This document shows, piece by piece, positions 2,850 through 54,676 of a stretch of DNA of 64,000 bases (position 1 is its first letter; the number at the start of each line of letters is the position of its first letter). The notes below the pieces were generated by a model. That model saw nothing but the letters and a program-made list of their open reading frames with translations, was not told the origin of the DNA and searched no databases. The position numbers were made by a program, and so were the translations under genes. This stretch comes from Narcine bancroftii (taxonomy: Eukaryota): the NCBI RefSeq assembly GCF_036971445.1, contig NC_091477.1, forward strand, positions 123,008,001 to 123,072,000. Direction: 5' to 3'.

Positions 2850-4970
2850 TGGGCATGACTTATACAATGTGTTCCCTTCGTTCGGGCTCCAGGAGGGTCT
2901 GAGAGCCTCCTGTCCTGGGAAATGGTGGGCACAAGCCATGCCACGCCTTGGGTCAAGGGGTGTCAGGGTCTCTCTCGGTCGCTGCCAGGTGGACGGGGGC
3001 GGGTATGGCGGGCGGTTGGGGTGCCTGCCCGGATGAGGACAAGGATGTGGGATTTGATGAGGAGGACTCCTTTGATGCAGAGCTGGCAGACTTCTTTGTC
3101 CCCAGTTCTGGGTTCATGGCCGTCACTGTGGGGGAGGTGAGGGAGTTCCTGGAGGACACCTGGGGGAGTGGCTGCCGCCTGCTGGTTGGATTTCCCTGGG
3201 GTAGCTCAGTCCTTGCATAACATCCTTAGAAAGACAGGGAAGGAGTGGGGATTAACCAGAAATGAGTGGAGCAAATTCAAGGAGCTCCTGCAGGCCTTGC
3301 TGCTGGCAGAGTTATGGTGGAGGGAGGCTCTGCAAAGAGCTCGACTCCCTCCACCCAGGGCTTTGGTGACGGAGTCTCCAGTGACTTGTTGTGAAGTTTA
3401 CCGTCGTCAGTCTGAATGTCAGTGGCGGAGGAGGGTCTCTCCGTCAGTTCCACCATTTCTCGCTCCTTATGCGGTGAGTTTCCTGCACCATTCCAGGAGA
3501 CTAATGCAGCTGGAATCCAGCTCCACGTCGAGCGGGTGGCTGCCTTGTTGGCCCCGATCTTCCAGGCCATTTGCTCCATCTGGCCAGGATGGCAGATTGT
3601 TGCACCATGTCAATGTTTATGCCCTGGAGCCCAGCCCGACGCAGACGCGCCTGTTCCACGATGTGTCTGCGGTGCTGGTTTCTATGAACCAGGGCAAGTG
3701 GATCATCCTTGGGGGGTTTAACTGCACCCTCGGGGACAGGGATTGTTCCGGCTCCTGGTTTTGCCTCAGTGAGGCTGCTGAAAAAGCTGGTGGGTTGAGG
3801 TTTCCCCCGGCCGCCTGTTCACCGACCCCCGGCCGCCTGTTCACCGACCCCCGGCCGCCTGTTCACCGATCCCCGGCCGCCTGTTCACCGACCCCCGGCC
3901 GCCTGTTCACCGACCCCCGGCCGCCTGTTCACCGCCCGGCCGCCTGTTTACCGACACCCCGGCCGTCTGTTCACCGACCCCCGGCCGCCTGTTCACCGAC
4001 CCCCGGCCGCCTGTTCACCGACCCCCGGTCGCCTGTTCACCGACCCCCGGCCGCCTGTTCACCGACCCCCGGCCGCCTGTTCACTGACCCCCGGCCGCCT
4101 GTTCACCGCCCGGCCGCCTGTTTACCGACACCCCGGCCGCCTGTTCACCGACCCCCGGCCGCCTGTTCACCGACCCCCGGCCGCCTGTTCACCGACCCCC
4201 GGCCGCCTGTTCACCGACCCCCGGCCGCCTGTTCACCGACCCCCGGCCGCCTGTTCACCGACCCCCGGCCGCCTGTTCACCGACACCCCGGCCGCCTGTT
4301 CACCGACCCCCGGCCGCCTGTTCACCAACACCCCGGCCGCCTGTTCACCAACACCCCGGCCGCCTGTTCACCGACCCCCGGCCGCCTGTTCACCGACCCC
4401 CGGCCGCCTGTTCACCGACACCCCGGCCGCCTGTTCACCGACCCCTGGCCGCCTGTCAATTCTGTGGATGGGAGCAGATGGTGTAGCAGGTCTCTGTAGA
4501 GTATGTGAAGTTGTAGCCCCTCTTCACTTACCTGAAGGGACTGTCCTCGAATTCTTGTTGCACTTCAGCCCCATGCACCTGATCCACGGCCACCCGATGT
4601 GGAAGGGGTCCTGGTGTTCAGTGGATCTCCTTGTGGGGTTACTGTTGGGGTTGGTGAAACTGGCCATTCATGGATTGAGTAGGCAGGTGGTCAAGAGGGT
4701 GGGGTGGTCTGACCGCCTGCCTGCCATTTGGGGTTTCGACCAGGCCCATGAGGTGTTGAAACAGGAACCTGCGTGTCCTAGGGGATGGAGGCCAAATTCT
4801 GAAAACATTTGGGCCTCTGGGGATTGCCTGTGAGGTTGATGGTGAGAGGCATTGGTTCTCACGGTGGTTTGCCACATGGTGGATTTTAGTTGTAGCTCTG
4901 TGTGTGTTTTTGTGTCTTGTAATGTTGTAGTTGTAGTTTTAAATGAAGTTTGTATATTATATAAACGAGG
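2850..4970 (+). mobile_element. Tx1-like non-LTR retrotransposon remnant (ORF1 end, ORF2 endonuclease, ORF2 C-terminus; RT absent)
   Basis: APE-like motifs FQETN, GRLLHHVNVYA, WIILGGFNCTL near 3490-3740; C-terminal segment FLLHFSPMHLIHGHP...DLLVGLLLGLVKLAIH at about 4550-4680 resembles Tx1 ORF2 ends. Boundaries approximate. Confidence 0.65.
3803..4457. repeat. Minisatellite, 22-bp unit CCCCCGGCCGCCTGTTCACCGA, about 30 copies
   Basis: Directly visible tandem array with minor variants; CpG-rich. Confidence 0.97.
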
Positions 4971-5133
4971 GGCTGAATTGGGGGATCTTCCTGTGCCTGC
5001 ATGTAGCCACAGTGACCATCATTCAGGTGATAGACTGAAGGATTTGGCCATGAACTGGCTCTCTGCCAAATGAGCAATGAACCCAGCCCAGCATCACTGT
5101 CACTGATTGGCCCAGTGGTGTGATGCCTCCCAC

Positions 5134-5298
5134 CTCCAATCAGCTGCATGATCCCAGCCACCAAACAGATCTTGGCCTTTAAGGCCACCTCTTCGTCGAG
5201 GAGTTTAACACAATCCAGGCCCAGAACCAGGAGGATAAAGGAGAAGCAGGCCAGGATGTCTGCAACGATCATCAAGGAGCGGGTCACCACCAGCTTCA
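5134..5298 (-). CDS. CLDN16: Claudin-16 coding exon 3 (165 nt)
   Basis: Encodes (L)[54 protein letters not shown]; acceptor ccccacAG, donor GTggga; phase matches exon 2. Confidence 0.95.
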
Positions 5299-8414: not shown

Positions 8415-9005
8415 TCGGCATGCTGGCCATTTTAAAGTGGCCCATAAAACATAGTCTCTAACAATAAATTGGACTGCATGTACATTGCAATTTTCAGTTT
8501 CAACGCTAGATGCTGCTGCTATTTTGAAAAATTACTAGACCAATTGTTGCAATGTTTCTTCATGTTGAAAACGTTTATCTGTTTAAAAAAAAGTTTACCC
8601 CAGTTGATTAAACCTGGTGAAACCGAAAAGATGTAAAATAACAAAGGAGTGCAGAAATCTTCAGACAGGGTGGAGAAATGAATTCTTTTTTACAAAAGTC
8701 AAGGGGAAGTGCATTTTTTTTGGAATTGCAAGGAATCTGTTAACTTTAACAACCTCTCAACAGATTTACACATTGTATCATAATCATTGAGATGGACTTG
8801 GGTCATGAAACGTGTTCACTGAGAGTCGTGGAAGAATGTTGGAGACGGCCTGGTCCCTTTTTTCATCTTTTGTCCTGTTCTTATTTTGCACCCAGGTTTT
8901 TAGTTTACACTGTTTTTTGAATGAGAGTTTTAAAAATATTGTCTGGCCCGTGACTCTTTATATTTTTGAAAATGACCTACAACCAAAAAAGCTTGGCCAT
9001 CCCTG
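8415..9005. mobile_element. AT-rich DNA transposon remnant with hAT-like terminus
   Basis: Insert in the CR1 ends in AAAAAAGCTTGGCCATCCCTG (reverse complement CAGGGATGGCCAAGC), resembling hAT/Charlie termini; the other end was not recognised. Confidence 0.5.
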
Positions 9006-10498
9006 ATTTAGATGATGGAATGAATGGGTTTGTGGCTGAATTTGAGGATGATATGAAGGTCAGTGGAGGAGCAGGGAGTGTGGAGGAATCATGGAGGCTG
9101 TAGAAGGACTTGGTTAAGTTAGGAGAATGGGCAGAAAAGTGGGAAATGGAATACAATGTCGGAAAAGTGGACAGTCATGCAGTTTGATAGAAAAATAAAT
9201 GGGAAAACTATTTTCTTAATGGGGAGGAAATTGAAAATCCCCAGATGCAAAAGGATCTGGGAGTCCTTGTGCAGTTCGACCTGAAGGTAAAAGTGCAGGT
9301 TGAGTTGGTGATGAAGAAGGCAAATGCGATGCTGGCGTTTATTTCAAGGGGAATAGACCAGGGATGGGATGTTGAGGCTTTATCAGGCACTGGTGAGGCC
9401 TCACCTGGTGTATTGTGAGCAATTTTGGGCTCCTCATTTAAGAAAGGCAGTGCTGATGTGAGAAGGTTCCGAGGCGGTTCACAGGGATGATTCTGGGAAT
9501 GAAAGGGTTATCATATGAGGAGCGTTTGACAGTTCTTGGCCTGGACTCGTTGGAATTTAGGAGATCGCACTGAAACATTTTGAATGTTGAAAGGTGTGAA
9601 CAGAGTAGATGTAGAAAGGTTGTTTCCCATGGTGGGAGAGTCTTGGACAAGAGGGCACAACCTCAGGATTGAAAGGAGATGTGGAGGAATTTGGTGAATC
9701 TGTGGAATTTGTTGTAACGGGTGGATGTGGGGATGTGGTGGCCGGGTCGTTAGGTGTATTTAAAGCAGAGAGTGATAGGTTCTTGATTAGCTAGGGCATC
9801 AAAGGTTATGGGGAGAAGGCTGGGCAGTGGGGCTGAGCGGGAAAATGGATCAGCTCATGATTAAATGGTGGGGCAGAATTGATGGGCTGAATGGCCTATT
9901 TTTGCTCCTACGTCTTATGGTCTATTGGTGCATGTACCATAACAATTGTTGTTCTGTGTGGAGACCAGTCGATATCTCATATATAGTTCAAGGAAGACAC
10001 AGAGCAGAAAGGCAAGGTCCAAGGTCTGAACACAGGAGGCTGAGGAGCACATCTGTGGAGGACAGGCCCAGTTCGAGGTGGAGGAGAGTCCCAACACCAC
10101 AGTTGACTATCCCCTCAGTCTGTGGGGTTCGAGACCATCAGAGAAACCCTATCCTCATCCCTAGGGTCCAAGCCACTCAGCGAAGCCCCCCCCCCACACT
10201 TCCACAGGGTCCACAACCCTTAGTGGAACCTCTTTGAGGTCCCTCAGTGAAGCCCCCCATGTTAATGGGATCTATCCTATCATGAAGACCCCAATCCCCA
10301 GGGTCAGAGACCCTCAGTGACCTCCCCTCTCCACAGGATCATGTGTGAGGGTGTCTGCACCCTTGGGCAGAGGTCGAGGCCCACACCTTGAGCCAGGAGG
10401 CAGGGGGTTGAAGGGAGGGGCTGGTGAACAGCTAGCCCTCCCCCCAGGAAGAACCCTGGGCTTCTGGGACCATTGATAGACTCCTAGTTAGTACTCAC

Positions 10499-10601
10499 AG
10501 GGAAGCTCAGACAGAATGGAGTCATAGTCATCACAGGTTCGGATCCCGTCCACAGTGCTGGTCACACATTCCCACCACAGACCCCGGCACTTCTCACTCA
10601 C
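10499..10601 (-). CDS. CLDN16: Claudin-16 coding exon 2 (103 nt, extracellular loop 1)
   Basis: [34 protein letters not shown] with the claudin GLW-C-C signature; acceptor tctctccAG, donor GTgagt. Confidence 0.97.
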
Positions 10602-13965: not shown

Positions 13966-14082
13966 CTCCAAGCTGTCGTCAGCATTCACCATCCAGCAGT
14001 CAGTGGACGTGGCCACTACGAGGAAGGCAGCAGAGAGCAGGGAGATGAAGACCCTCCCGAGCTGCATCTCCGGCCTCATCAT
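13966..14082 (-). CDS. CLDN16: Claudin-16 coding exon 1 (117 nt from first ATG)
   Basis: [39 protein letters not shown]; [13 protein letters not shown] is characteristic of CLDN16; donor GAG|GTGAGG, phase 0. Alternative ATGs at 14079 and 14067. Confidence 0.95.
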
Positions 14083-14301
14083 AGCCCGAGAGACTGAGTT
14101 CCAGGGATGGGCGTGGAGAACAGCCCGCCCCACAGCCTCCTGCCCCAGGTGACCCTCTCCTGAACGAGGTGCTGGCCAATCACATCACCATAAGCAATAC
14201 CAACTCCACACCCTGTTCATGGGACTGGCACTGGGTCCAGCACAGCACACAGGAAGGGGGGGGGGGGGTGGGGTGTTGGGGGGTTGGGTGGAGGGCTGTG
14301 T

Positions 14302-14552
14302 GCAGTAAAAACACGATGCTGGAGAAACTCAGCAGGTCAAACAGTGTCCTTTATACAGCAAAGATAAAGGTAAATAAGCAACGTTTCAGGCCTGAGCCCT
14401 TCATTAAGGCATCTTCAGGAAGGGCTCAAGCCCAAAACGCTGGTTCTGTATCTTTCCCTTTGCTGTATAAAGGACACTGTTTGACCAGCTGAATTTCTCC
14501 AGCATCATGTTTTTACTGCAACCACGGTGTCTGCAGAATTACGTGTTTTACT
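14302..14552. mobile_element. Palindromic Penelope-like-derived element with degenerate hammerhead-like cores
   Basis: Arms about 14302-14410 and 14415-14520 are reverse complements; each carries a variant of CCTTGATGAAGGGCTCAAGCCCGAAACG. Confidence 0.65.
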
Positions 14553-14887
14553 TCAGAGCGATGTGTGGGTCAGAGTGTGGGTGGGAATGTCGGGATGTGT
14601 GTGGGGCAGGGCGTTGCATTCGGCTGTGAGTGGGGTGGGGCAGTGCATTGGGCTGTGTGTGGGGCTGTGTGTGGGCTTGTGCAGGCCATGTATGAGGGCC
14701 TGCAGTCTGCCCAGAGCTGTGTGCTTTTCCCATGGCCCTTTCATGGGATATTTTAATCCAGAAATTGCCTGCTCATTGATACCTTGAAGAAGGGCTAAAG
14801 CCTGAAATGTCATTTTTTAAAATCTTTATCTCCTATGGACACCGTGAAACCTGCTGAATTCCTCCAGCATCTCTGTATTTGTACCAT

Positions 14888-15195
14888 TGAATCTTCAGGC
14901 TCCTGGACTTCCTTCCTGATGGTATCAGAGTGAAGAGGGCATGGCCTGGGTGATGAGGGTCCTTGAGGGTAGAGGCTGCTTTCTTGAGACACATGTCCTA
15001 TCGACGTCCTCGATGGAGTGAAGACTGATGCAGTTCACAAATCTCTGTAGTCTATTCCTGTCCTGAGCGTTGGCACCTCCGTCTCAGATAGAGATGCAAC
15101 TGGTCAGAATGCTCTCCACAGTACACCTGTGTAAGGGATTTACCCACCTCCTGAAGTACACAATCAATTCTTTAGTTTTACTGACATTGAGCGCA
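14888..15195 (-). mobile_element. Rex1/Babar-like LINE 3' fragment
   Basis: Reverse strand gives HPGHALFTLIPSGRKSRSLK, resembling Rex/Babar C-termini; similar pieces at about 21130-21490 and 46250-46640. Confidence 0.6.
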
Positions 15196-15196
15196 T

Positions 15197-17180
15197 GAAC
15201 ATAGAACAATGCAGCACACTACAGGCTCTTTGGCCCCTGATGTTGTGCTGACCCATTTATTCCTTCCTAAAAAAAATCTGATCCATCCACCCCGAAACCC
15301 TCTATTTTTCTTTCATCTATGTGTCTAAGAGTCTCTTAAATGCCCCCAATGTTCTGGCCTCCACCATCATCCCCGGCAAGGAATTCCAGGCCCCCACAAC
15401 TCTCTGGGTAAAAAAAAATCCAAATTCTTGTAGGGCTTATATACAAAATAATGGAGAAACTCAAGCATTTTACAAGCGTTCTGAACATACATGAAAGACA
15501 GGAGGATGGCTAAAGAGAGGGTAGGATCGATTAGGGATAAAGGAGGCAACATGTGTCAGGAAACAGGAGGTAGGGAAAGACCTAAATGAATAGTTGCTTC
15601 AGTGTTTACCAGGGAGAGGGACCTTAGTCAACGTGAGGTCAATGTAGAATCGCCAATTGTACTGGATCATTTTGAGGATAAGAAGGAGGAGTGCTGGATC
15701 TTCTCAATATTCAGATCGATAAATACCTAGGACCACATGAGATAAATCCTAGGTTATTACAGGCAGTGAAGAAAGATATTGCTGAGGCATTCACAATGAC
15801 CTTTGCATCATCCCCAGCCACAGTGGAGGATCGGAGAATGGAAAATGTAGCTTCTTTACTTAAAAAAAGCTAGGAGGGAGAATCCAGGGAATTGTAGACC
15901 AGTGAGCCTAACTATTGGAGAGGATTCTTAGGGGCAGAGTTTACAAGCATTTGGAGAAACATAGTCTCCTCAGGGATAGTCAGCAGGGCTTTATAAGAGG
16001 CAGTTCATGCTTCATGAGCCTAATTGAGTTTATCAAGTTGTTGACAAAAGAAAATGATGGAGGTAGGGTGGACCATGAGGGGTATGTAGATTTCAAAAAG
16101 GTGTTTGTCTAGATCCCCTCTGGTAAACTCATTCAGACAGACGTGAAGCATGGGAAACTTGGATCTGTCTAGACATGAAGCATGGCGTCCTTGGATCCAT
16201 CCAGATATGGTATGGGGTCCTTTTCGATCCATCCAGACATGAAGTATGGGGTCCTTGGATCTGTCCAAACATGAAGAATGGGGTCCTTGGATCTGTCCAG
16301 ACATGAAGCATGGGGTCCTTGGATCCATCCAGACATGAAGCATGGGGTCCTTGGATCCATCGAGATGTGAACCATGGGGTCCTTGGATCTGTCTGTTTAG
16401 ATTCAGAATTGATTTGCCTGCAGAAGTCAGAGGGTAGTAGTTGATGTAATGTATCTGCCTGGAGGTCAGTGACGTGGAGTTCTGCAGGGATTTACTTTGT
16501 GATTTTTATAAATGACCTGGATGAAGAAGAAGAGGGGTGGGTTGGTAAGTTTGCAGATGACATGAAGGTTGGGGAGTTGTGAATAGTGTTGAAAGTTGTC
16601 ATAAGTTACCACAGGATATAGACAGGATGTAAAGTTGGGCAGAGAAGTGGCAAATGGAATTCAATCCACATAATCTGCCAGGGCCTGACCTGGAGGGAGG
16701 CATTTTATTCAGGTGCCTGCCAGCTTTTTGCTCATATCTGGACAAAGTGATCAGGTCTGAAACATTGGTTACCCTTTACTTTCTACAGATGTTGCGCGAC
16801 CTGTTAAGTTTCTCCAGCACTTTTGTGTGTTCCTCTATTGAGTACAGGAGTTGGGATGTTATGGTGAAGTTTTATAAGATATTGGTGAGGCCAAATTTGG
16901 AGTATTGTGTGCAGTTTTGGTTACCTAACTACAGGAAGGATATCAATAAGATAGAAAGAGGGCAGAACAGATTTACTAGGATGTTGTCTGAACTTCAGGA
17001 ACTGAGTTGCAGGGAAAGGTCCAACAGATTAGGACTTTATTCCTGGAATGCAGAAGAATGAGGGGAGATTTGACAGGGATTTACAAAATTATGAGGGGGA
17101 TAGACAGTAAATACAAGCAGGATTTTCAACTGAGAGATGGTGAGACAAGAATAGAGGAGATGGGTTTAAGAGTGAAAGGG
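15197..17180. mobile_element. Cluster of CR1 fragments (15197-15410 minus; 15470-17180 plus)
   Basis: GPHEINPRLL, DSQQGFIRG, YVDFKKVF, KFADD and LVRPNLEYCVQFW motifs. Confidence 0.85.
16145..16395. repeat. 32-bp tandem repeat CATGAAGCATGGGGTCCTTGGATCTGTCCAGA, about 8 copies, inside CR1
   Basis: Directly visible; period 32 (for example 16270 and 16302). Confidence 0.9.
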
Positions 17181-17493
17181 GAGGGAGGAAGGGTGTGGAG
17201 GGGATGTGGGTGAGAGAGGAAGGGTGTGGAGGAGATGGGGGTGAGGGAAGGGTGTGGAGGAGATGGGGAGAAGGGGAAGGGTGTTGAAGGGATGGGGTGA
17301 GGAGGGGACGGGGGTGAGAGGGGGAAGGATGTTGTGGGGATGGGGTGAGGAGGGGACGGGGTGAGGGGATGTTGCGGATGTGGGGGCTGCTTCTTCTTTC
17401 AGACAGTTTGTGGGATTTGATATGAGGATACCCCACTCCTTAGAAAGGAAAGCGTGTGCCTGAATGGATTGAGGTGAGTAGGGGGGGGGGGTT

Positions 17494-18075
17494 GCCTGTA
17501 AGGGGCGGGCCGTGATTGGGCGGTGCCTGTGAGGGGCGGGCCGTGATTGGGCGGTGCCTGTAAGGGGCGGGCCGTGATTGGGCGGTGCCTGTAAGGGGCG
17601 GGCCGTGATTGGGCGGTGCCTGTGAGGGGCGGGCCGTGATTGGGCGGTGCCTGTGAGGGGCGGGCCGTGATTGGGCGGTGCCTGTAAGGGGCGGGCCGTG
17701 ATTGGGCGGTGCCTGTGAGGGGCGGGCCGTGATTGGGCGGTGCCTGTGAGGGGCGGGCCGTGATTGGGCGGTGCCTGTAAGGGGCGGGTCGTGATTGGGC
17801 GGTGCCTGTGAGGGGCGGACCGTGATTGGGCGGTGCCTGTGAGGGGCGGGCCGTGATTGGGCGGGCCGTGATTGGGCGGTGCCTGTAAGGGGCGGGCCGT
17901 GATTGGGCGGTGCCTGTGAGGGGCGGGCCGTGATTGGGCGGTGCCTGTGAGGGGCGGGCCGTGATTGGGCGGTGCCTGTGAGGGGCGGACCGTGATTGGG
18001 CGGTGCCTGTGAGGGGCGGGCCGTGATTGGGCGGTGCCTGTGAGGGGCGGGCCGTCATTGGGCGGTGCCTGTGAG
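17494..18075 (+). promoter_or_regulatory. 31-bp tandem array at the putative CLDN1 promoter; each unit has GGGGCGGG (GC box) and GATTGG (reverse CCAAT)
   Basis: Unit GCCTGTRAGGGGCGGGCCGTGATTGGGCGGT, about 18 copies, ending about 35 bp before the ATG at 18111. The repeat is certain; promoter function is inferred. Confidence 0.75.
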
Positions 18076-18110
18076 GCCATCCACGTCCCGCTCCTATTCC
18101 CGCTCCGGAC

Positions 18111-18333
18111 ATGGCAAACGCCGGCTTTCAGCTGCTGGGCTTCGCGCTCGCCCTCCTCGGCTGGGTCGGGGTGATCACCAGCACGGCGCTGCCCCAGTGG
18201 AGGACCTCGTCCTACGCCGGGGACAACATTGTCACTGCCCAGGCCATCTACGAGGGGCTCTGGATGTCGTGTGTGGCTCAGAGCACCGGCCAGACGCAGT
18301 GCAAGGTGTACGACTCCATGCTGCAGCTCGGCC
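18111..18333 (+). CDS. CLDN1: Claudin-1 coding exon 1 (223 nt)
   Basis: [20 protein letters not shown]...[41 protein letters not shown]; donor C|GTGAGT; synteny with CLDN16 and P3H2 supports CLDN1 over CLDN7/19. Confidence 0.95.
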
Positions 18334-18364
18334 GTGAGTCCAGGGTGGTGATGGTGGGCGGGAT

Positions 18365-18586
18365 GGGACCGGGGGTCGCGGGGCGGCTGGGAGGGACCGG
18401 GGGTCGCGGGGCGGCTGGGAGGGACCGGGGGTCGCGGGGCGGCTGGGAGGGACCGGGGGTCGCGGGGCGGCTGGGAGGGACCGGGGGTCGCGGGGCGGCT
18501 GGGAGGGACCGGGGGTCGCGGGGCGGCTGGGAGGGACCGGGGGTCGCGGGGCGGCTGGGAGGGACCGGGGGTCGCGGGGCGGCTGG
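18365..18586. repeat. 28-bp GC-rich minisatellite GGGACCGGGGGTCGCGGGGCGGCTGGGA, about 8 copies, CLDN1 intron 1
   Basis: Directly visible; part of the CpG-rich region about 17490-18970. Confidence 0.95.
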
Positions 18587-24534: not shown

Positions 24535-24699
24535 GCACCCTCCAGGCGACCCGTGCCCTCATGATCATCAGTATTCTTCTGGGAACCCTGGCCAGCCTGG
24601 TCTCCACTGTTGGGATGAAGTGCACTACCTGCTTTGGAGATGAGCCAGTGAAGAAGGCGAAGGTAGCAGGGGCTGGCGGAGTGCTCTTCATTGTCTCAG
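24535..24699 (+). CDS. CLDN1: Claudin-1 coding exon 2 (165 nt)
   Basis: (R)[54 protein letters not shown]; acceptor tcccttgcAG, donor GTacac. Confidence 0.96.
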
Positions 24700-25691
24700 G
24701 TACACAGCAGGGTCTAAATGTGTGTTCCGGGGGCATCAGCAACTCTGGAAATGGGGTGCCTGGTTGGTGAAACGTGTTGGTCTTCAGATTCACAGTGGAA
24801 TATTGGAGAAACCACCAGAGACCTGACAAGTCCGTTCACTTGGCAGCTGCGCTGTCCTGACAGTGGGATCCAAGGACGAGCAGAGAGGGCCATCTCCTGA
24901 CCAGGGAATCATGGTAAAACCATGCAGGATGTCTGGACTTTAGTGTGGATCTTGTGGAAAAGGGCAGAGCTGCCAAGTGTTTGAACAGAGAGGTCACCAG
25001 TGACATAGTCAACAGCAATAATCAATCTGCTGGTGGAACCTTCAGTAGGGAAGTTACAGGATGGGCAAACTCTCTCATGGATCTGACAGATTGCCAGGCA
25101 GGCACACAGGTGGGAGAAACGAACATCAGAGCTTGTTGAACTTCAACACTTTCTGTCAGAGCAGGTCCCTTCCCCAACATCCTGCCGCACAGTTCATCTG
25201 TCCCACCTGTAAAACTGTGAAGATATCCTCTGCTTATTGATGTGTTTTGGAATTTCACTGGCCTTTCCCAGAATTTCATCCTCAATAAATGCTATCAGTA
25301 ATGTTGATGAGACTTCACCTATGCTCTCTGTCACCACACACTCACTGCCTCAACATGGGCCCCACTCTTCCCCTCCATTCCTTGCTGTGATTGGCCAGGG
25401 TCAAGTCTGGGTAGGGGTCTGATTGGCCCGGCTCAGTTAGGTTGCTCCAATGGTTCTTGGATTGGCCAGATCTGCGTTAGGTCAGTGGGTCTCTGTTTGA
25501 ACGTGGTTTGAATAATTGGATCAGATTGACCGGATCTGGGTTGCTCCAGATGGAATCTCTGATTGGCCGGCCCTGGACCGGGATCTCTGATTGGCCGGAT
25601 GTAGGTTGGACTAAAGGGTAGTTGGAGTTTGCCAACCTTTCACCTCCTGTGAGATGGGGTCCTGAGCATGCACTCTCCTCGTTTCCCACAG

Positions 25692-25776
25692 GTCTCCTTA
25701 CGTTGATTGCAACGGCATGGTTTGGAAACAATATTGTGCGGGAATTCTATGACCCTTTTACTCCGGTCAACACTCG
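25692..25776 (+). CDS. CLDN1: Claudin-1 coding exon 3 (85 nt)
   Basis: (G)[27 protein letters not shown](R); acceptor ttcccacAG, donor GTAAGT; found by manual translation, not in the ORF track. Confidence 0.96.
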
Positions 25777-26319
25777 GTAAGTTCTGAATGGATCTTCAAT
25801 ATGGCCTGGCTCAGTGAACAATTCTCCATCTATGGCCTGCAGGTTATAGACCGTAGAACAGACCAGCACAGAACCAGTCCCTTTGGCTCATCTGATTCAT
25901 GCTGAGCTATTGTGTGTTGGAATCTTAATTGTCTCTTGGACATTAGCACAGGTCTGTAGGCTGCAGGTCTCAATGAAGATGCACATTCCTCCTCTCTCTG
26001 TTCTCCAGTCCAAGGCTTTTTGCTTCACAACCCTTTTGTCAAGAGGTATCTGGGAATGCACATGTGCCAATGGACACCCACATACAGCACAAAAACAGGC
26101 CCTTTAGCACACCTTGGCCTTGCTGACCATCCACACCAATCCCATTTGCCTCTAGATTCTCGACCAAGACACTCAGGCCCAAGACGTTGACTGCCTTTTA
26201 CTTCCCGTGGATACTGTGTGGCCTGTTGAGTTTCTCCAGTGCTTTGTGTCCTGCACTTGACCCCAGTGCATGCAGACTTCATGTTGATCTCCCTTCTACC
26301 CTGGCAACTGGAGCGCTTG

Positions 26320-27150
26320 TCTTGCTGGTTGTAGTGAGAGGTGCCAGGGTAGTGATTGAAGCAGATACAATGTTAGCATTGGAAAGGTGGGCACATGAAT
26401 GTGGAGGGGACGGTATACTACATTTCTCCCCTCTTCCAGATCACTTGTGTATATCGTGAATCTGAGGAACATCTTCCCTCTTAGGTGGTGGGTGTGTGTA
26501 ATGAGCTGCCAGAGGAGGTTGTGGAAGGAGACACTTGCAACATTTGGATGGGTCTGTGGATAGGAAAAGTGTAGAGGGATGTGGGCTCAATGGAGGAAAT
26601 GGGATCAGCTTAGGACAGCACCTTGGCTGGCATGAAGAACTGGGGCTGAGGGCCTCTGTGTGCATATTGACTCTGTGGCTTTGAGGAGGTGACTGCTGAG
26701 GCTGGGATGTTGAAGCAGAGACTCTGCTGGTGGAGCAGCATCTGCAGGGAAGAAAAATGGTCAAGATTTTGGGCCAGAGCCTTTTGTTAAGGCTTTTCCC
26801 ACTGCTGCTCGAGTTGCTGAGTTTCCCCCAGCAGAAGGTGTGTTGACTCAACACGTGGGGCATTTGCAGGAAGTTCTCACTCTGTTCTGGTGAGATGCCG
26901 TCACGATACATACCAGAGGACATGGGTTAAGGATGAAAAGGGGAACATGAGGGGGCGTGTGGATCAAGCTGGCAGCTGAAGTGGTGAATGTGGGCCCAAT
27001 TTTAACATTTAAGAAGAATTTGGATGGGTGCGTGGATGGGAGAGGGATGGAGGGCTATAAGCTGTGTGCAGGTCAGTGGGATGTGGCAGATTAATAGTTG
27101 GGCACAGACTAGAAGGACCTGTTTTTCTGTCCTGTAATGTTCTATGTCTC
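26320..27150 (+). mobile_element. Degraded CR1 3'-end fragments
   Basis: GAGCTGCCAGAGGAGGT and CCAGAGGACATGGGTTAAGG 3' motifs shared with other CR1 copies here. Confidence 0.65.
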
Positions 27151-27619
27151 AATGTGGCATGTGTTTTGACAGATAGTTGTGTTTTGTTTGAAAGCCTTGC
27201 AGCAATCTGATGCTGAGTCTGACTTATCAGTGGGTTTGGCACAGGCTTATTAGATGCAGGCAGTGCAAGATGCAACAGGCAGAGGAATGTTCTGGAATGG
27301 AGACATGTTGGTTCTAGCCCCGGATGTCTACTTTTCCTTGCACACACACCAGTGCCTGCCCTCGGAGGCCTATTCTCATGGCCAGCGAGGGTCTGAGTTG
27401 ATGCACACAGGGACTGGGGCGCCATCATGGATAATGTACTGGGTGTCAGGGGGGCGGAGGGAGAGCGCAGGCAGTGGTCAGGCTCAATGAACGGTGACCC
27501 CTTTCTGGCTGTATGTTGTGTTGAGACCCATCCTCCATATGAAAGCATTCTCTGGGTAGGTAAACCCCTCAGCTTCTGGCAGGTCAGAGACAGTTACTGA
27601 TGTGCTCTTTCCCTCGCAG

Positions 27620-27773
27620 GTTCGAGTTTGGCCAGGCCCTGTTCATTGGCTGGGCCGCAGCAGCCCTTTCCATGCTCGGCGGAGCCTTCCTCACCTGCTC
27701 CTGTGCCAAAGGAGGGTCCCAGGGCCGTTCCTACCCACGCTCCAATCCATCTGCTGCCAAGAACTACGTGTAG
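27620..27773 (+). CDS. CLDN1: Claudin-1 coding exon 4 (154 nt including TAG)
   Basis: [50 protein letters not shown]; C-terminal YV PDZ motif; total CDS 627 nt, 208 aa. Confidence 0.96.
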
Positions 27774-34540: not shown

Positions 34541-35571
34541 AGGGTTCACAACTTCAAACAAAAAGGCTCCCTCTTACTGGTGTTTGCCAAACTCGAGCAT
34601 CGAATGGAACCTGAGTAGTGGGGGATCAGAGGATCCTATTTGTCCATTCCTTCCAGATTTGCATTAATTTAGATCTAGGTTTTGGCGTTCCCTTCTCCTC
34701 GAGAGGGCTCCTGCATTCCTCCATTCTTCTGGCACATGTTTGGGCTTCTGTCATCGATGCAACGTTCACTACTGGTGGCAAGGCATTTTTGTTGGTGTTC
34801 ATTTTGAGGTCACATCTTCTCTGACTAACCTCCCAATAAAAAGAACCTGCATTTGGCATTTGAGCATCGAGTATGAATCTCTCGTCAGGCAGAAGTTTGA
34901 AAACTATTTTCTCCTCTTGCTGATATCGGCAACCTGCCCCCTGGTGATTTCTATCAATCCGAGGGAGTTTGTGGAGGCCAGGTTTATTCAGCTCAAGTCA
35001 CCGCCTGCCTCCCCCTCCTCATCAAATGTAGCGACTCACAAATGTGGCTTCTGTAAACGTTTACCTTCTGTAAACATCTTTTCTGGAGTCTTAATCTAAA
35101 TGTTTTTAAAGGGTCCAGGAAGGAGCGAATTTGTGCTTATACTTTGTAACAGGGTGTTGGGAGGGGGTGGTTTGTGGTCCTTGTACAAGTGAAAGCAGTT
35201 TTCGATGCAGAGCTTCTGAAACAGAGAGAACTAATGGGAAAATGGGCTGAGCGAGGGCAGAGGTCACACGTTGGGAGGTTAAAGCAGGGCAGGACTTGCA
35301 TGGTGAACGGTAGGGCCCTGGGGACTGTTGCAGAACACAGAGACTTGAGGGAGTTGTACGAGCTGGAGAACACTGACAGCATGAATGGTCTTTTCTGTCT
35401 CCATGACTTGATCCACAGGGGAGGCTTCTTCCCCCTGTTCTGAAACTGTAATGTCACCTCTCACCTTGACCCCACACCATCTCACTCCCTCTACCCAAAA
35501 TCTGCCCACCACACAATGTTCATATCCTGTAATGAAGCCTCCACCACCCCAGAGGCAAAGAGAAGGATAGA

Positions 35572-36392
35572 GAGAGGGGACAGGGAAGCAGAGAGAGGGG
35601 ACAGGGAAGCAGAGAGAGGGGACAGGGAAGCAGAGAGAGGGACAGGGAAGCAGAGAGAGGGGACAGGGAAGCAGAGAGAGGGGACAGGGAAGCAGAGAGA
35701 GGGGACAGGGAAGCAGAGAGAGGGGACAGGGAAGCAGAGAGAGGGGACAGGGAAGCAGAGAGAGGGGACAGGGAAGCAGAGAGAGGGGACAGGGAAGCAG
35801 AGAGAGGGGACAGGGAAGCAGAGAGAGGGGACAGGGAAGCAGAGAGAGGGGACAGGGAAGCAGAGAGAGGGGACAGGGAAGCAGAGAGAGGGGACAGGGA
35901 AGCAGAGAGAGGGGACAGGGAAGCAGAGAGAGGGGACAGGGAAGCAGAGAGAGGGGACAGGGAAGCAGAGAGAGGGGACAGGGAAGCAGAGAGAGGGGAC
36001 AGGGAAGCAGAGAGAGGGGACAGGGAAGCAGAGAGAGGGGACAGGGAAGCAGAGAGAGGGGACAGGGAAGCAGAGAGAGGGGACAGGGAAGCAGAGAGAG
36101 GGGACAGGGAAGCAGAGAGAGGGGACAGGGAAGCAGAGAGAGGGGACAGGGAAGCAGAGAGAGGGGACAGGGAAGCAGAGAGAGGGGACAGGGAAGCAGA
36201 GAGAGGGACAGGGAAGCAGAGAGAGGGGACAGGGAAGCAGAGAGAGGGGACAGGGAAGCAGAGAGAGGGGACAGGGAAGCAGAGAGAGGGGACAGGGAAG
36301 CAGAGAGAGGGGACAGGGAAGCAGAGAGAGGGGACAGGGAAGCAGAGAGAGGGGACAGGGAAGCAGAGAGAGGGGACAGGGAAGCAGAGAGA
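35572..36392. repeat. 21-bp purine-rich minisatellite GGGGACAGGGAAGCAGAGAGA, about 39 copies
   Basis: Directly visible, nearly perfect. Confidence 0.98.
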
Positions 36393-37029
36393 GTGGGGCA
36401 TGATGGGGGAGAGAGGGAGAAGAAAGAAGACGATAGGGCACAAAGGGATGGCCAATTCATCCCGAAATCCAAACTCTTAGCATGTCTCTGTCCATCCTTC
36501 ACCCTGCGCAGAATTCCGTATCTCCCGGAGACCTGCTCGTGGTTCCACACAGCGGGGAGCACGACAGGATGGAGACCTGCTCGTGGTTCCACACAGCGGG
36601 GAGCACGACAGGATGGAGACTGGCCAGGCAGTGGTTTCTGGGACTGAACAGTGAGCTCCTGTGGTTTTAGGTCGAGAGTCAAGGTCCTGAGTGATCGTCG
36701 TGCCTCCAGAGTGGCAGGGAGTCTCCTTTCTTGGGTGAGACATCAGTCCCTCAATGAAGGCAGCATTGTGGACGAGAAGCTGGTCACCATCCCCTCTTGA
36801 ACAGACTCAGTCTGTCCACCACTTGCAGAGTGTTTCTGTCTTCTCTCTGACCTCACCCAGTCTGAGGTAAACCACATCCTTGCACTGCTGGCAGGTAGAT
36901 AAGCAAGCAGCACTTCAACTCCCCACCATCCCCTCTTCGTCACTCACTCCACTGGAACCATTCCGTATGGAGACAACCCACCTGACCCCCACCCCTGGAC
37001 TCACCTGTACCGACTCCGACCCCCTACAC

Positions 37030-38572: not shown

Positions 38573-41500
38573 ATCCCCCCCTCCCCACCATCTATCCCCC
38601 CCTCCCCACCATCTATCCCCCCCTCCCCACCATCTATCCCCCCCTCCCCACCATCTATCCCCCCCTCCCCACCATCTATCCCCCCCTCCCCACCATCTAT
38701 CCCCCCTCCCCACCATCTATCCCCCCCTCCCCACCATCTATCCCCCCCTCCCCACCATCTATCCCCCCCCTCCCCACCATCTATCCCCCCCTCCCCACCA
38801 TCTATCCCCCCCTCCCCACCATCTATCCCCCCCTCCCCACCATCTATCCCCCCCCTCCCCACCATCTATCCCCCCCTCCCCACCATCTATCCCCCCTCCC
38901 CACCATCTATCCCCCCCTCCCCACCACTATCCCCCCCTCCCCACCATCTATCCCCCCCTCCCCACCATCTATCCCCCCCTCCCCACCATCTATCCCCCCC
39001 TCCCCACCATCTATCCCCCCCTCCCCACCATCTATCCCCCCCTCCCCACCATCTATCCCCCCCTCCCCACCATCTATCCCCCCCTCCCCACCATCTATCC
39101 CCCCCTCCCCACCATCTATCCCCCCCCTCCCCACCATCTATCCCCCCCCTCCCCACCATCTATCCCCCCCTCCCCACCATCTATCCCCCCCTCCCCACCA
39201 TCTATCCCCCCACCCCACCATCTATCCCCCCCTCCCCACCATCTATCCCCCCCTCCCCACCATCTATCCCCCCCTCCCCACCATCTATCCCCCCCTCCCC
39301 ACCATCTATCCCCCCCTCCCCACCATCTATCCCCCCCTCCCCACCATCTATCCCCCCCTCCCCACCATCTATCCCCCCCTCCCCACCATCTATCCCCCCC
39401 TCCCCACCATCTATCCCCCCCTCCCCACCATCTATCCCCCCCTCCCCACCATCTATCCCCCCCTCCCCACCATCTATCCCCCCCTCCCCACCATCTATCC
39501 CCCCCTCCCCACCATCTATCCCCCCCTCCCCACCATCTATCCCCCCCTCCCCACCATCTATCCCCCCCTCCCCACCATCTATCCCCCCCTCCCCACCATC
39601 TATCCCCCCCTCCCCACCATCTATCCCCCCCTCCCCACCATCTATCCCCCCCTCCCCACCATCTATCCCCCCCTCCCCACCATCTATCCCCCCCTCCCCA
39701 CCATCTATCCCCCCCTCCCCACCATCTATCCCCCCCTCCCCACCATCTATCCCCCCCTCCCCACCATCTATCCCCCCCTCCCCACCATCTATCCCCCCCT
39801 CCCCACCATCTATCCCCCCCTCCCCACCATCTATCCCCCCCTCCCCACCATCTATCCCCCCCTCCCCACCATCTATCCCCCCCTCCCCACCATCTATCCC
39901 CCCCTCCCCACCATCTATCCCCCCCTCCCCACCATCTATCCCCCCCTCCCCACCATCTATCCCCCCCTCCCCACCATCTATCCCCCCCTCCCCACCATCT
40001 ATCCCCCCCTCCCCACCATCTATCCCCCCCTCCCCACCATCTATCCCCCCCTCCCCACCATCTATCCCCCCCTCCCCACCATCTATCCCCCCCTCCCCAC
40101 CATCTATCCCCCCCTCCCCACCATCTATCCCCCCCTCCCCACCATCTATCCCCCCCTCCCCACCATCTATCCCCCCCTCCCCACCATCTATCCCCCCCTC
40201 CCCACCATCTATCCCCCCCTCCCCACCATCTATCCCCCCCTCCCCACCATCTATCCCCCCCTCCCCACCATCTATCCCCCCCTCCCCACCATCTATCCCC
40301 CCCTCCCCACCATCTATCCCCCCCTCCCCACCATCTATCCCCCCCTCCCCACCATCTATCCCCCCCTCCCCACCATCTATCCCCCCCTCCCCACCATCTA
40401 TCCCCCCCTCCCCACCATCTATCCCCCCCTCCCCACCATCTATCCCCCCCTCCCCACCATCTATCCCCCCCTCCCCACCATCTATCCCCCCCTCCCCACC
40501 ATCTATCCCCCCCTCCCCACCATCTATCCCCCCCTCCCCACCATCTATCCCCCCCTCCCCACCATCTATCCCCCCCTCCCCACCATCTATCCCCCCCTCC
40601 CCACCATCTATCCCCCCCTCCCCACCATCTATCCCCCCCTCCCCACCATCTATCCCCCCCTCCCCACCATCTATCCCCCCCTCCCCACCATCTATCCCCC
40701 CCTCCCCACCATCTATCCCCCCCTCCCCACCATCTATCCCCCCCTCCCCACCATCTATCCCCCCCTCCCCACCATCTATCCCCCCCTCCCCACCATCTAT
40801 CCCCCCCTCCCCACCATCTATCCCCCCCTCCCCACCATCTATCCCCCCCTCCCCACCATCTATCCCCCCCTCCCCACCATCTATCCCCCCCTCCCCACCA
40901 TCTATCCCCCCCTCCCCACCATCTATCCCCCCCTCCCCACCATCTATCCCCCCCTCCCCACCATCTATCCCCCCCTCCCCACCATCTATCCCCCCCTCCC
41001 CACCATCTATCCCCCCCTCCCCACCATCTATCCCCCCCTCCCCACCATCTATCCCCCCCTCCCCACCATCTATCCCCCCCTCCCCACCATCTATCCCCCC
41101 CTCCCCACCATCTATCCCCCCCTCCCCACCATCTATCCCCCCCTCCCCACCATCTATCCCCCCCTCCCCACCATCTATCCCCCCCTCCCCACCATCTATC
41201 CCCCCCTCCCCACCATCTATCCCCCCCTCCCCACCATCTATCCCCCCCTCCCCACCATCTATCCCCCCCTCCCCACCATCTATCCCCCCCTCCCCACCAT
41301 CTATCCCCCCCTCCCCACCATCTATCCCCCCCTCCCCACCATCTATCCCCCCCTCCCCACCATCTATCCCCCCCCTCCCCACCATCTATCCCCCCCTCCC
41401 CACCATCTATCCCCCCCCTCCCCACCATCTATCCCCCCCTCCCCACCATCTATCCCCCCCTCCCCACCATCTATCCCCCCCTCCCCACCATCTATCCCCC

Positions 41501-42360
41501 CCTCCCCACCATCTATCCCCCCCTCCCCACCATCTATCCCCCCCTCCCCACCATCTATCCCCCCCTCCCCACCATCTATCCCCCCCTCCCCACCATCTAT
41601 CCCCCCCTCCCCACCATCTATCCCCCCCTCCCCACCATCTATCCCCCCCTCCCCACCATCTATCCCCCCCTCCCCACCATCTATCCCCCCCTCCCCACCA
41701 TCTATCCCCCCCTCCCCACCATCTATCCCCCCCTCCCCACCATCTATCCCCCCCTCCCCACCATCTATCCCCCCCTCCCCACCATCTATCCCCCCCTCCC
41801 CACCATCTATCCCCCCCTCCCCACCATCTATCCCCCCCTCCCCACCATCTATCCCCCCCTCCCCACCATCTATCCCCCCCTCCCCACCATCTATCCCCCC
41901 CTCCCCACCATCTATCCCCCCCTCCCCACCATCTATCCCCCCCTCCCCACCATCTATCCCCCCCTCCCCACCATCTATCCCCCCCTCCCCACCATCTATC
42001 CCCCCCTCCCCACCATCTATCCCCCCCTCCCCACCATCTATCCCCCCCTCCCCACCATCTATCCCCCCCTCCCCACCATCTATCCCCCCCTCCCCACCAT
42101 CTATCCCCCCCTCCCCACCATCTATCCCCCCCTCCCCACCATCTATCCCCCCCTCCCCACCATCTATCCCCCCCTCCCCACCATCTATCCCCCCCTCCCC
42201 ACCATCTATCCCCCCCTCCCCACCATCTATCCCCCCCTCCCCACCATCTATCCTCCCCTCCCCACCATCTATCCCCCCCTCCCCACCATCTATCCCCCCC
42301 TCCCCACCATCTATCCCCCCCTCCCCACCATCTATCCCCCCCTCCCCACCATCTATCCCC
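38573..42360. repeat. 21-bp minisatellite CCCCCCCTCCCCACCATCTAT, about 180 copies (3.8 kb)
   Basis: Directly visible; very homogeneous; G-tracts on the minus strand. Confidence 0.99.
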
Positions 42361-54314: not shown

Positions 54315-54676
54315 CCGTGCCCGGGTGGGACCTCCGTGCCCGGGTGGGACCTCCGTGCCCGGGTGGGACCTCCGTGCCCGGGTGGGACCTCCGTGCCCGG
54401 GTGGGACCTCCGTGCCCGGGTGGGACCTCCGTGCCCGGGTGGGACCTCCGTGCCCGGGTGGGACCTCCGTGCCCGGGTGGGACCTCCGTGCCCGGGTGGG
54501 ACCTCCGTGCCCGGGTGGGACCTCCGTGCCCGGGTGGGACCTCCGTGCCCGGGTGGGACCTCCGTGCCCGGGTGGGACCTCCGTGCCCGGGTGGGACCTC
54601 CGTGCCCGGGTGGGACCTCCGTGCCCGGGTGGGACCTCCGTGCCCGGGTGGGACCTCCGTGCCCGGGTGGGACCTC
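54315..54676. repeat. 19-bp minisatellite CCGTGCCCGGGTGGGACCT, about 19 perfect copies, P3H2 intron 2
   Basis: Directly visible; fills about two thirds of the 541-bp intron. Confidence 0.98.

What the first reader, a model, noticed from the sequence alone, without database searches (positions are those of the whole stretch)
17494..18075. Putative CLDN1 promoter is a helically phased tandem array of GC-box plus CCAAT-box modules
Seen: about 18 copies of a 31-bp unit, each with GGGGCGGGC and GATTGGGC (reverse CCAAT), ending about 35 bp before the CLDN1 ATG, so the promoter and probably the TSS lie in or upstream of the array. Known: GC boxes bind Sp/KLF factors, CCAAT boxes bind NF-Y, and promoters with several CCAAT boxes often space them about three helical turns apart. 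Inference: a 31-bp period keeps all sites on roughly one DNA face, so copy number could tune claudin-1, and possibly the divergent CLDN16, expression as a VNTR.
Basis: partly seen in the sequence, partly recalled or inferred. Interest (0 to 1): 0.72.

Follow-up and report, generated by a model that had tools for sequence, protein, structure and literature searches.

The report
Amplified promoter minisatellite of ray claudin-1
In an electric ray, a 31-letter piece carrying two common promoter signals is repeated 18 times just in front of the tight-junction gene claudin-1; it likely arose by ordinary repeat expansion, as similar arrays likely did at several other gene starts in this genome, and nothing yet shows that its spacing or copy number controls the gene.

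Summary
The array is real: 18 units (17 of 31 bp, one of 46 bp) at 17493-18076, with 19 reverse CCAAT and 37 GGGCGG cores, ending 34 bp before the ATG of a true CLDN1 orthologue. Contigs of public runs hold the tandem unit, and a related organism holds a diverged version with the same period. It is most likely the amplified proximal promoter module. Selected phasing is not supported. The unit is a dimer of 15/16-mers, so GC cores alternate faces, and the 46-bp unit breaks phase. Nearby array periods are not enriched for whole turns (6 of 25). Eight other promoter-like CCAAT arrays in this genome have periods of 30-40 bp, none within 1 bp of 31.5. In favour: 31 bp is a published preferred CCAAT spacing, and simple CCAAT pairs here prefer 30-32 bp (11 of 19). 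CLDN16 starts 3.4 kb away with its own CCAAT and GC box. Start site, binding, polymorphism and dosage effect are untested. Closest known: ABO NF-Y minisatellite, ERV-9 LTR repeats. The scan noted such arrays before on other DNA (elephant-shark HPF1; RFX and YY1 arrays in this genome).

The parts
17493..18076 (+). 31-bp minisatellite, 18 full units plus a partial one; each unit has GGGGCGGG-type GC box, reverse CCAAT (ATTGG) and a second GGGCGG core; likely the amplified proximal promoter of CLDN1
   Evidence: GC 0.72, CpG o/e 0.93
17834..17879 (+). 46-bp unit: one extra 15-bp sub-unit, giving two CCAAT boxes 15 bp apart and a phase shift of about 154 degrees
   Evidence: 15 bp is below the 19-24 bp minimum for two NF-Y trimers quoted in PMC4889920 and PMC4982600
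18035..18065 (+). last full unit, with a private variant base at 18056 next to the CCAAT box; the same branch point appears in contigs of runs X3 and X4
18077..18110 (+). 34 bp of unique sequence between array and ATG; no TATA[AT]A match in 17480-18115
18111..18333 (+). CLDN1 coding exon 1 (followed by GTGAGT donor)
   Evidence: (100% identical over 74 aa to P0016, named claudin-1-like of an electric ray by its source)
18360..18586 (+). second CpG-rich minisatellite (28 bp x 8.1) at the start of intron 1, with one GGGCGG core per unit and no CCAAT
24535..27773 (+). CLDN1 coding exons 2-4 (about 24535-24701, 25690-25777, 27620-27773; edges approximate)
   Evidence: tblastn with P0016; sequence
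17396..17485 (.). fragment of a dispersed high-copy repeat directly left of the array; family not identified
   Evidence: many contigs of all 4 runs laid match it at 85-95% with shared loose ends; no second copy in the other 664 kb tested at E 1e-5
13966..14082 (-). first coding exon of the divergent CLDN16-like gene (name from recalled sequence and synteny; no call returned a CLDN16 protein)
   Evidence: later exons near 10509-10586 and 5132-5293
14124..14180 (-). CLDN16-like gene's own single reverse CCAAT (14180-14176) and GC box (14131-14124), about 98 and 45 bp above its ATG

Best explanation
The array is an 18-fold tandem copy of a GC-box plus reverse-CCAAT module directly above the CLDN1 start codon, likely the gene's own proximal promoter expanded by the general minisatellite-forming process of this GC-rich chromosome end. 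Shown: the unit is a diverged dimer of a 15-bp and a 16-bp sub-unit, only one of which completes ATTGG, so CCAAT boxes recur every 31 bp and GC cores every 15/16 bp. Inferred: NF-Y and Sp/KLF factors would bind the last few units and start transcription near the 3' end of the array, as a CCAAT box usually lies about 80 bp above a start site; the further units would be redundant sites and CpG-island filler with at most a weak, saturating effect. Inferred: the 31-bp period was fixed when the dimer was first amplified. It is compatible with adjacent NF-Y binding and may have been inherited from a normal two-box spacing, but it is likely not maintained by selection for a long phased platform.
For: Region makes arrays freely: 25 in 464 kb around the window against 2 in 200 kb of the same contig's interior; 7 of 14 CpG-island-like segments overlap an array; 6 of 25 periods lie within 1 bp of n x 10.5 against 24.6% expected, p 0.60. 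The same 10-mer GATTGGGCGG is tandem at 6 other loci with periods 23, 35, 35, 35, 40, 35, one inside an intron. Natural control: of two adjacent mannosyltransferase (PF03901, PIGZ-like by recall) paralogues, one has 8 CCAAT boxes in a 35-bp array about 60 nt above a CAGGTAAT donor, the other a single GCCAATCAC about 75 nt above a CAGGTAAG donor. Of 11 further CCAAT-array loci fetched, 7 look promoter-like by sequence, with periods 37/40, 36, 30, 30, 36, 35 and about 34; the three in-phase ones (42, 43, 21) do not. In equal 3-bp windows, arrays of 3 or more strong CCAAT boxes number 2 (30-32 bp), 4 (35-37 bp) and 1 (25-27 bp), p 0.74 for an excess at 30-32. The phase-breaking 46-bp unit is present. 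In humans about 6% of tested regulatory VNTRs were tied to expression, about twice that within 100 bp of a start site (PMC8024321 passages). CCAAT at about -80: PMC3730095 passage.
Against: 31 bp is exactly the main peak of CCAAT direct-repeat distances in human NF-Y/c-Fos promoters (PMC4982600 passages). Simple strong CCAAT pairs in this genome also favour 30-32 bp: 11 of 19 pairs across the three windows, p 0.024; 13 of 26 loci, p 0.058; 8 of the first 15 loci listed are in phase, p 0.02. A related organism (run X9) holds diverged units with a joint going back 62 bases, so the period has likely persisted across a species split. Only 2 of 19 claudin first coding exons have an array within 1.49 kb above the ATG, so this is not the default state of a promoter. 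Promoter status of this and of the comparison arrays rests on sequence only, and the comparison loci were picked through chosen spacing windows.
Confidence: 0.6

Rival explanations
1. Selected phased platform: the 31-bp period keeps NF-Y trimers in helical register with Sp/KLF between them, many units are bound at once, and copy number tunes CLDN1 output as an expression VNTR.
For: 31 bp is the published main CCAAT-pair peak, read as same-face binding with a gap for another factor (PMC4982600); GC-rich Sp1 sites between paired CCAAT boxes are described (PMC4889920); simple pairs in this genome favour 30-32 bp; only every second sub-unit has CCAAT; period likely shared with organism B; ABO four-repeat alleles gave higher reporter activity (PMC2988417 passage).
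Against: Eight other promoter-like CCAAT arrays have periods 30, 30, about 34, 35, 35, 36, 36 and 37/40; PMC4889920 reports peaks at 24-28 and 35-37 bp instead, so published preferences cover most periods; drift and the 46-bp unit spread sites over several faces; an inherited minisatellite keeps its period without selection; the ABO repeat effect in vivo is called controversial (PMC7187371 passage); polymorphism not shown.
Confidence: 0.2
2. Each unit can act as a promoter for the sequence below it, so starts are scattered at 31-bp steps through the 3' part of the array and copy number mainly changes 5' leader length and structure, not promoter strength.
For: The last CCAAT is only 54 bp above the ATG and no TATA match was found, so starts set about 80 bp below boxes 15-17 would fall in or just after the array; a run guessed to be RNA (X4) holds a 61-nt contig that is one full cycle of the unit, which needs sequence from 17995 or further up; the unit has no ATG, so a longer leader would be tolerated.
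Against: X3 and X4 are only guessed to be RNA and may hold DNA; contigs cannot show a start.
Confidence: 0.12
3. The array is a chance GC-rich subtelomeric minisatellite whose motifs are incidental and unbound, or its length is inflated in the assembly; the real promoter lies elsewhere.
For: The same 10-mer is tandem in an intron and at CpG-poor sites; the CCAAT has C, not a purine, directly 5' of the core (purine preference recalled, no call); no laid contig spans the array, so 18 copies rests on the assembly.
Against: It is the only one of 25 nearby arrays with both motifs and it sits at -618 to -35 from the ATG; the 400 bp above it are CpG-poor (o/e 0.32) and repeat-derived; tandem units are present in contigs of three studies.
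Confidence: 0.08

Closest known systems
Human ABO CBF/NF-Y minisatellite (43-bp unit, 1 or 4 copies; PMC7187371 and PMC2988417, passages read)
   Same: Tandem unit with a CCAAT motif upstream of a gene; the same question of whether copy number changes transcription.
   Different: ABO repeat lies about 3.8 kb upstream as an enhancer, has at most 4 copies, and binding and polymorphism are shown; this array has 18 copies, abuts the start codon, adds GC boxes, and has no binding or allele data.
ERV-9/LTR12 U3 repeats (5-17 repeats of 37-41 bases with CCAAT and CCACC motifs bound by NF-Y; PMC3769647 and PMC3730095, passages read)
   Same: Long homotypic run of CCAAT plus GC/CACC-type modules with comparable copy number.
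   Different: Those are parts of a dispersed retroviral LTR family; this unit was found at one locus only and appears to come from the host promoter itself.
Paired CCAAT boxes 31 bp apart in human NF-Y/c-Fos promoters (PMC4982600, passages read; different peaks in PMC4889920)
   Same: Direct CCAAT repeats at exactly 31 bp with a GC box between them.
   Different: Those are non-repetitive pairs with unrelated spacers; here whole units are near-identical copies, 19 boxes long, with one 15-bp spacing.
Human promoter eVNTRs (PMC8024321, passages read)
   Same: Minisatellite within 500 bp of a gene start carrying factor-binding motifs.
   Different: eVNTR status needs genotypes and expression across individuals, which are not available here; the median eVNTR allele was 48 bp against 584 bp here.

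Membership tests
Minisatellite | Head-to-tail units of about 10-60 bp with high identity | tested here: met
   31-bp unit, 94-95% matches, 18 units
Minisatellite | Tandem state exists outside the assembly | tested here: met
   Full unit cycle as a 61-nt contig in X4; joint going back 62 bases in X9. Shows two or more units, not 18.
VNTR / eVNTR | Copy number differs between alleles or individuals | not testable with these tools
   All listed runs are kept as contigs; none laid spans the array
VNTR / eVNTR | Copy number associated with expression | not testable with these tools
   No genotype-expression data
CCAAT/GC-box proximal promoter | CCAAT core and GC boxes in a CpG-rich stretch directly above the first exon | tested here: met
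   19 ATTGG, 37 GGGCGG, CpG o/e 0.93, 34 bp above the ATG
CCAAT/GC-box proximal promoter | CCAAT about 80 bp above a mapped start site | tested here: inconclusive
   Contigs cannot place a start; geometry allows a start between about 18045 and 18105 (inference from PMC3730095 passage)
CCAAT/GC-box proximal promoter | NF-Y and Sp/KLF binding | not testable with these tools
   Motif match only
Phased multi-CCAAT promoter | Neighbouring boxes about three turns apart | tested here: met
   17 of 18 spacings are 31 bp, one is 15 bp
Phased multi-CCAAT promoter | Spacing under selection (whole-turn periods enriched among comparable arrays) | tested here: not met
   6 of 25 local arrays in phase, p 0.60; CCAAT arrays 2, 4 and 1 in the 30-32, 35-37 and 25-27 bp windows, p 0.74; 0 of 8 other promoter-like arrays within 1 bp of 31.5. 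Small numbers.
Bidirectional promoter shared with CLDN16 | Divergent starts within about 1 kb (criterion recalled) | tested here: not met
   ATG to ATG 4.0 kb, array to CLDN16-like ATG 3.4 kb; separate CCAAT and GC box at CLDN16. Start sites themselves unmapped.
LTR or transposon-borne CCAAT repeat (ERV-9 type) | Unit dispersed at many loci with an element | tested here: not met
   One locus by DNA search; the 6 other loci with the tandem 10-mer have unrelated spacers. The DNA search skips common words.

The most novel reading that the evidence does not exclude
Electric rays routinely expand their proximal promoter modules into long runs of factor-binding sites, and at CLDN1 this has built a lineage-conserved, three-turn-spaced NF-Y/Sp platform of 18 units whose copy number acts as a dial for tight-junction claudin-1, giving a natural panel of promoters (periods 30-40 bp, single-copy paralogue controls) in which the effect of site number and helical phase can be read directly.
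Probability: 0.12. Interest if true: 0.7.

Novelty: new member of a known kind. Interest (0 to 1): 0.33.

Why it matters
As a single locus it is a new example of a known kind: a CCAAT-bearing promoter minisatellite like the ABO NF-Y repeat or ERV-9 U3 repeats, here unusually long and directly above the start codon. The wider point is the class. At least nine promoter-like CCAAT arrays with different periods exist in one genome, one with a single-copy paralogue beside it. That set would let someone test whether site number and helical phase matter for NF-Y promoters in vivo, a question the ABO case left unsettled. If copy number did tune claudin-1, it would be a simple heritable dial on epithelial barrier strength; nothing here shows that.

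Tried and rejected
Expression and start site: no RNA holder listed on record; X3, X4 and X7 are only guessed to be RNA. In one search the bin depths resolve into a short contig holding the full unit cycle and a contig that begins at the position matching 18026 and runs past the stretch (arithmetic); their depths differ widely (2.87 and 755.7 in X4, 10.9 and 145.3 in X3), but one depth per contig cannot rank parts of a gene, so I draw no start site from it. No reads or contigs were laid on the leader and exon 1, so the relatives' orthologous promoter sequence was not seen. The flank-to-array junction had almost no cover in any run; no conclusion. X1 may be the assembly's own sample and is not independent. 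Summed depth is not a copy number. Dispersed-element origin of the unit: rejected. The left-flank repeat could not be named. Shared control with CLDN16: rejected on distance and separate motifs. Hairpin or G-quadruplex role: four units fold at -21.4 kcal/mol with DNA parameters, three G-runs per unit, no shuffle control, not pursued. Control pentamer search (CCATA): 241 matches, first 100 rows are 5 loci with periods 37, 42/21, 26, 28, 27; too few for a test. Pfam gave no family for the reading frames below two comparison arrays (L137, L138) or for two short exon pieces, so those gene names are recalled. Look-alike stretches in other scanned genomes: none. Paper searches with no hit or no relevant listing for promoter minisatellites in sharks and rays: (listings only); for CCAAT spacing wording: (no hit); for claudin-1 promoter with Sp1 and CCAAT: (15 of 29 listed, none on point by title or abstract start). 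No supplements were opened; those of PMC4982600 and PMC4889920 may hold the full distance tables. PMC4973313 (BORIS minisatellite): abstract and outline only, not used.

Full report
Observation. The array is as described. It runs from 17493 to 18076 and has 18 full units and an 11-bp partial unit. Seventeen units are 31 bp; unit 12 is 46 bp. ATTGG occurs 19 times, GGGGCGGG 16 times and the GGGCGG core 37 times at 15/16-bp spacing. The 31-mer is a dimer of two related sub-units that both start with GGGCGG; only the 15-bp one ends so that ATTGG is formed with the next core. The 46-bp unit is an extra copy of that 15-mer. The array is 72% GC with CpG o/e 0.93; the 400 bp above it have o/e 0.32. 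A DNA search of the own genome returned only this locus.

The genes. The ATG at 18111 opens a claudin exon that is 100% identical over 74 residues to P0016, named claudin-1-like of an electric ray by its source. P0016 maps to four exons ending at 27773. In a tree of 24 full-length proteins chosen from the 120 listed, the ray and shark proteins group with claudin-1 rows apart from the 6 claudin-7 rows at 100/100, and the prolyl 3-hydroxylase part of P0105 hits six exons 6-14 kb beyond the window's end on the same strand. A CLDN16-like gene (name from recall and synteny) lies on the minus strand with its ATG at 14082. It has its own reverse CCAAT and GC box within 100 bp of that ATG and is 3.4 kb from the array, so shared control is not indicated.

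Is the array real outside the assembly? Twenty-three runs hold part of the region, all kept as contigs, none on record as RNA. I laid 4 of them on the left flank plus two units. X4 has a 61-nt contig that is one full cycle of the unit and ends just before the base where unit 18 differs; bin depths in X3 and X4 fit a second contig that starts at the position matching 18026. X9, a different organism holding 0.07 of the words, has four listed contigs with 2-8 differences over 59-62 nt and one joint going back 62 bases; one 428-nt contig continues 365 nt downstream, which I infer, without seeing it, to be its CLDN1 leader and exon. So tandem units are real and likely older than a species split. 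Copy number, polymorphism and the start site were not obtained. The same call showed that 17396-17485 is a piece of a dispersed high-copy repeat.

Base rates. In 464 kb around the window there are 25 high-identity arrays (TRF, at least 88% matches, at least 4 copies, period 10-70), against 2 in 200 kb of the contig's interior; 7 of 14 CpG-island-like segments overlap one; 6 of 25 periods are within 1 bp of a multiple of 10.5, against 24.6% expected (p 0.60); this array is the only one with both CCAAT and GC box. Among 19 claudin first coding exons, 2 have an array within 1.49 kb above the ATG: this one and a claudin-7-like gene.

Sister arrays. The 10-mer GATTGGGCGG is tandem at six other loci with periods 23, 35, 35, 35, 40 and 35. 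One is intronic. One, 35 bp x 7.8, is CpG-rich and lies above a splice donor upstream of a PF03901 gene whose adjacent paralogue has a single CCAAT box at a similar distance from its donor. A search for pairs of strong CCAAT boxes 20-50 bp apart gave 451 matches, of which the first 100 rows cover 15 loci, 8 in phase (p 0.02). Complete lists for three equal windows gave 13 loci at 30-32 bp, 6 at 35-37 bp and 7 at 25-27 bp (counted by eye; one degenerate cluster appears in two windows and was counted as a pair in each). Simple pairs split 11, 2, 6 (p 0.024) and arrays of three or more boxes 2, 4, 1 (p 0.74). I fetched 11 multi-box loci from these lists. Seven look promoter-like by sequence (CpG-rich downstream side with an ATG exon or donor close by; one of the seven only weakly), with periods 37/40, 36, 30, 30, 36, 35 and about 34; four do not, with periods 27, 42, 43 and 21. 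So ordinary CCAAT pairs in this genome lean towards three turns, as in human promoters, while amplified arrays do not. Numbers are small, loci were picked through chosen windows, and no gene models were available.

Phase within the array. At 10.5 bp/turn each unit drifts 17 degrees and the 46-bp unit shifts about 154 degrees; the resultant of the 19 CCAAT angles is 0.65 (0.62 at 10.4, 0.24 at 10.6). Neighbouring boxes are near one face; the array as a whole is not. The two GC cores per unit lie about 1.5 turns apart, on opposite faces.

Mechanism. Shown: an 18-fold copy of a GC-box and CCAAT module fills the stretch from -618 to -35 relative to the ATG, in a region and genome where such expansions are common. 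Inferred: it is the amplified proximal promoter; NF-Y and Sp/KLF factors would bind the last units and start transcription near the 3' end, since CCAAT is usually about 80 bp above the start (PMC3730095 passage); extra units would be redundant or weakly additive; the period was set by the 15+16 dimer. I give this 0.6, a selected phased dial 0.2, staggered starts with variable leader 0.12, and incidental motifs or inflated length 0.08.

Comparison with what is known. PMC4982600 (passages) reports a main CCAAT-pair peak at 31 bp, read as same-face NF-Y binding, and a 24-bp minimum. PMC4889920 (passages) reports peaks at 24-28 and 35-37 bp, GC-rich sites between the boxes and none closer than 19 bp. 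Published preferences thus cover both this period and those of the sister arrays. The ABO gene has a 43-bp NF-Y-bound minisatellite of 1 or 4 copies with a reporter effect but a disputed effect in vivo (PMC2988417 and PMC7187371, passages). ERV-9 LTRs carry 5-17 repeats of 37-41 bases with CCAAT motifs (PMC3769647, passage). About 6% of tested human regulatory VNTRs were eVNTRs, about twice as many within 100 bp of a start (PMC8024321, passages). Searches found no paper on promoter minisatellites in sharks or rays (listings only; the library lacks most subscription papers). Earlier notes of this scan describe a 36-copy CCAAT module above elephant-shark HPF1 and RFX and YY1 arrays at other promoters of this genome; I did not check those loci.

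Verdict. Observation confirmed; promoter reading likely; selected phasing and CLDN16 co-control not supported; VNTR tuning untested. New member of a known kind, interest 0.33. Its best use is as one member of a natural panel of amplified CCAAT promoters.

Noticed in passing
L067:8671-8944 and L068 about 8920-9010 (G000:C21 near 108.22 and 108.23 Mb): Two tandem PF03901 (PIGZ-like by recall) paralogues; one has an 8-box, 35-bp CCAAT array above its likely first donor, the other a single CCAAT box at a similar place. A natural copy-number control.
   Followed up: partly
L134:2808-3288 (G000:C1 near 149.30 Mb): 37/40-bp CCAAT array of 12 units in a CpG island ending about 37 bp above an ATG exon with a donor: same geometry as CLDN1, out-of-phase period. 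Gene not identified.
   Followed up: partly
L139:2719-3290 (G000:C27 near 23.757 Mb): Higher-order CCAAT array (36-bp spacing inside a 183-bp unit) above a short ATG exon that resembles a BLTP3/UHRF1BP1 start (name recalled).
   Followed up: partly
L137:2897-3069 and L138:2877-3032: Two 30-bp CCAAT arrays (5-6 copies) above CpG islands; downstream frames resemble TMEM177 and STXBP5-type starts (names recalled, Pfam gave nothing).
   Followed up: partly
L140:2497-5394 (G000:C1 near 480.14 Mb): 69 near-perfect copies of a 42-bp unit with a consensus CCAAT box, four turns apart, in CpG-poor repeat-derived sequence, followed closely by a CAGGTAAG donor-like site.
   Followed up: no
L023, about 230 to 13 bp above the ATG (G000:C5 near 199.14 Mb): The claudin-7-like gene has a 26/27-bp (53-bp dimer) array between a CCAAT/TATA-like motif and its ATG, probably in the 5' leader.
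   Followed up: partly
window 14082-18111: The CLDN16-like and CLDN1 start codons are only 4.0 kb apart; the human gap is recalled as tens of kb.
   Followed up: partly
window 3804-4456, 35569-36393, 38573-42360, 54315-54676: Other long, high-identity minisatellites (22 bp x 30, 21 bp x 39, 21 bp x 180, 19 bp x 19); two are CpG-rich without being above a known ATG.
   Followed up: no
L038:1402-1580 (G000:C11 near 191.97 Mb): 23-bp array with CCGCCCAATC inside a short intron between exons that resemble an insulin-receptor-family gene (name recalled; Pfam gave nothing).
   Followed up: partly
window 17396-17485: Fragment of an unnamed high-copy dispersed repeat directly left of the array, present in many contigs of all four runs laid.
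   Followed up: partly
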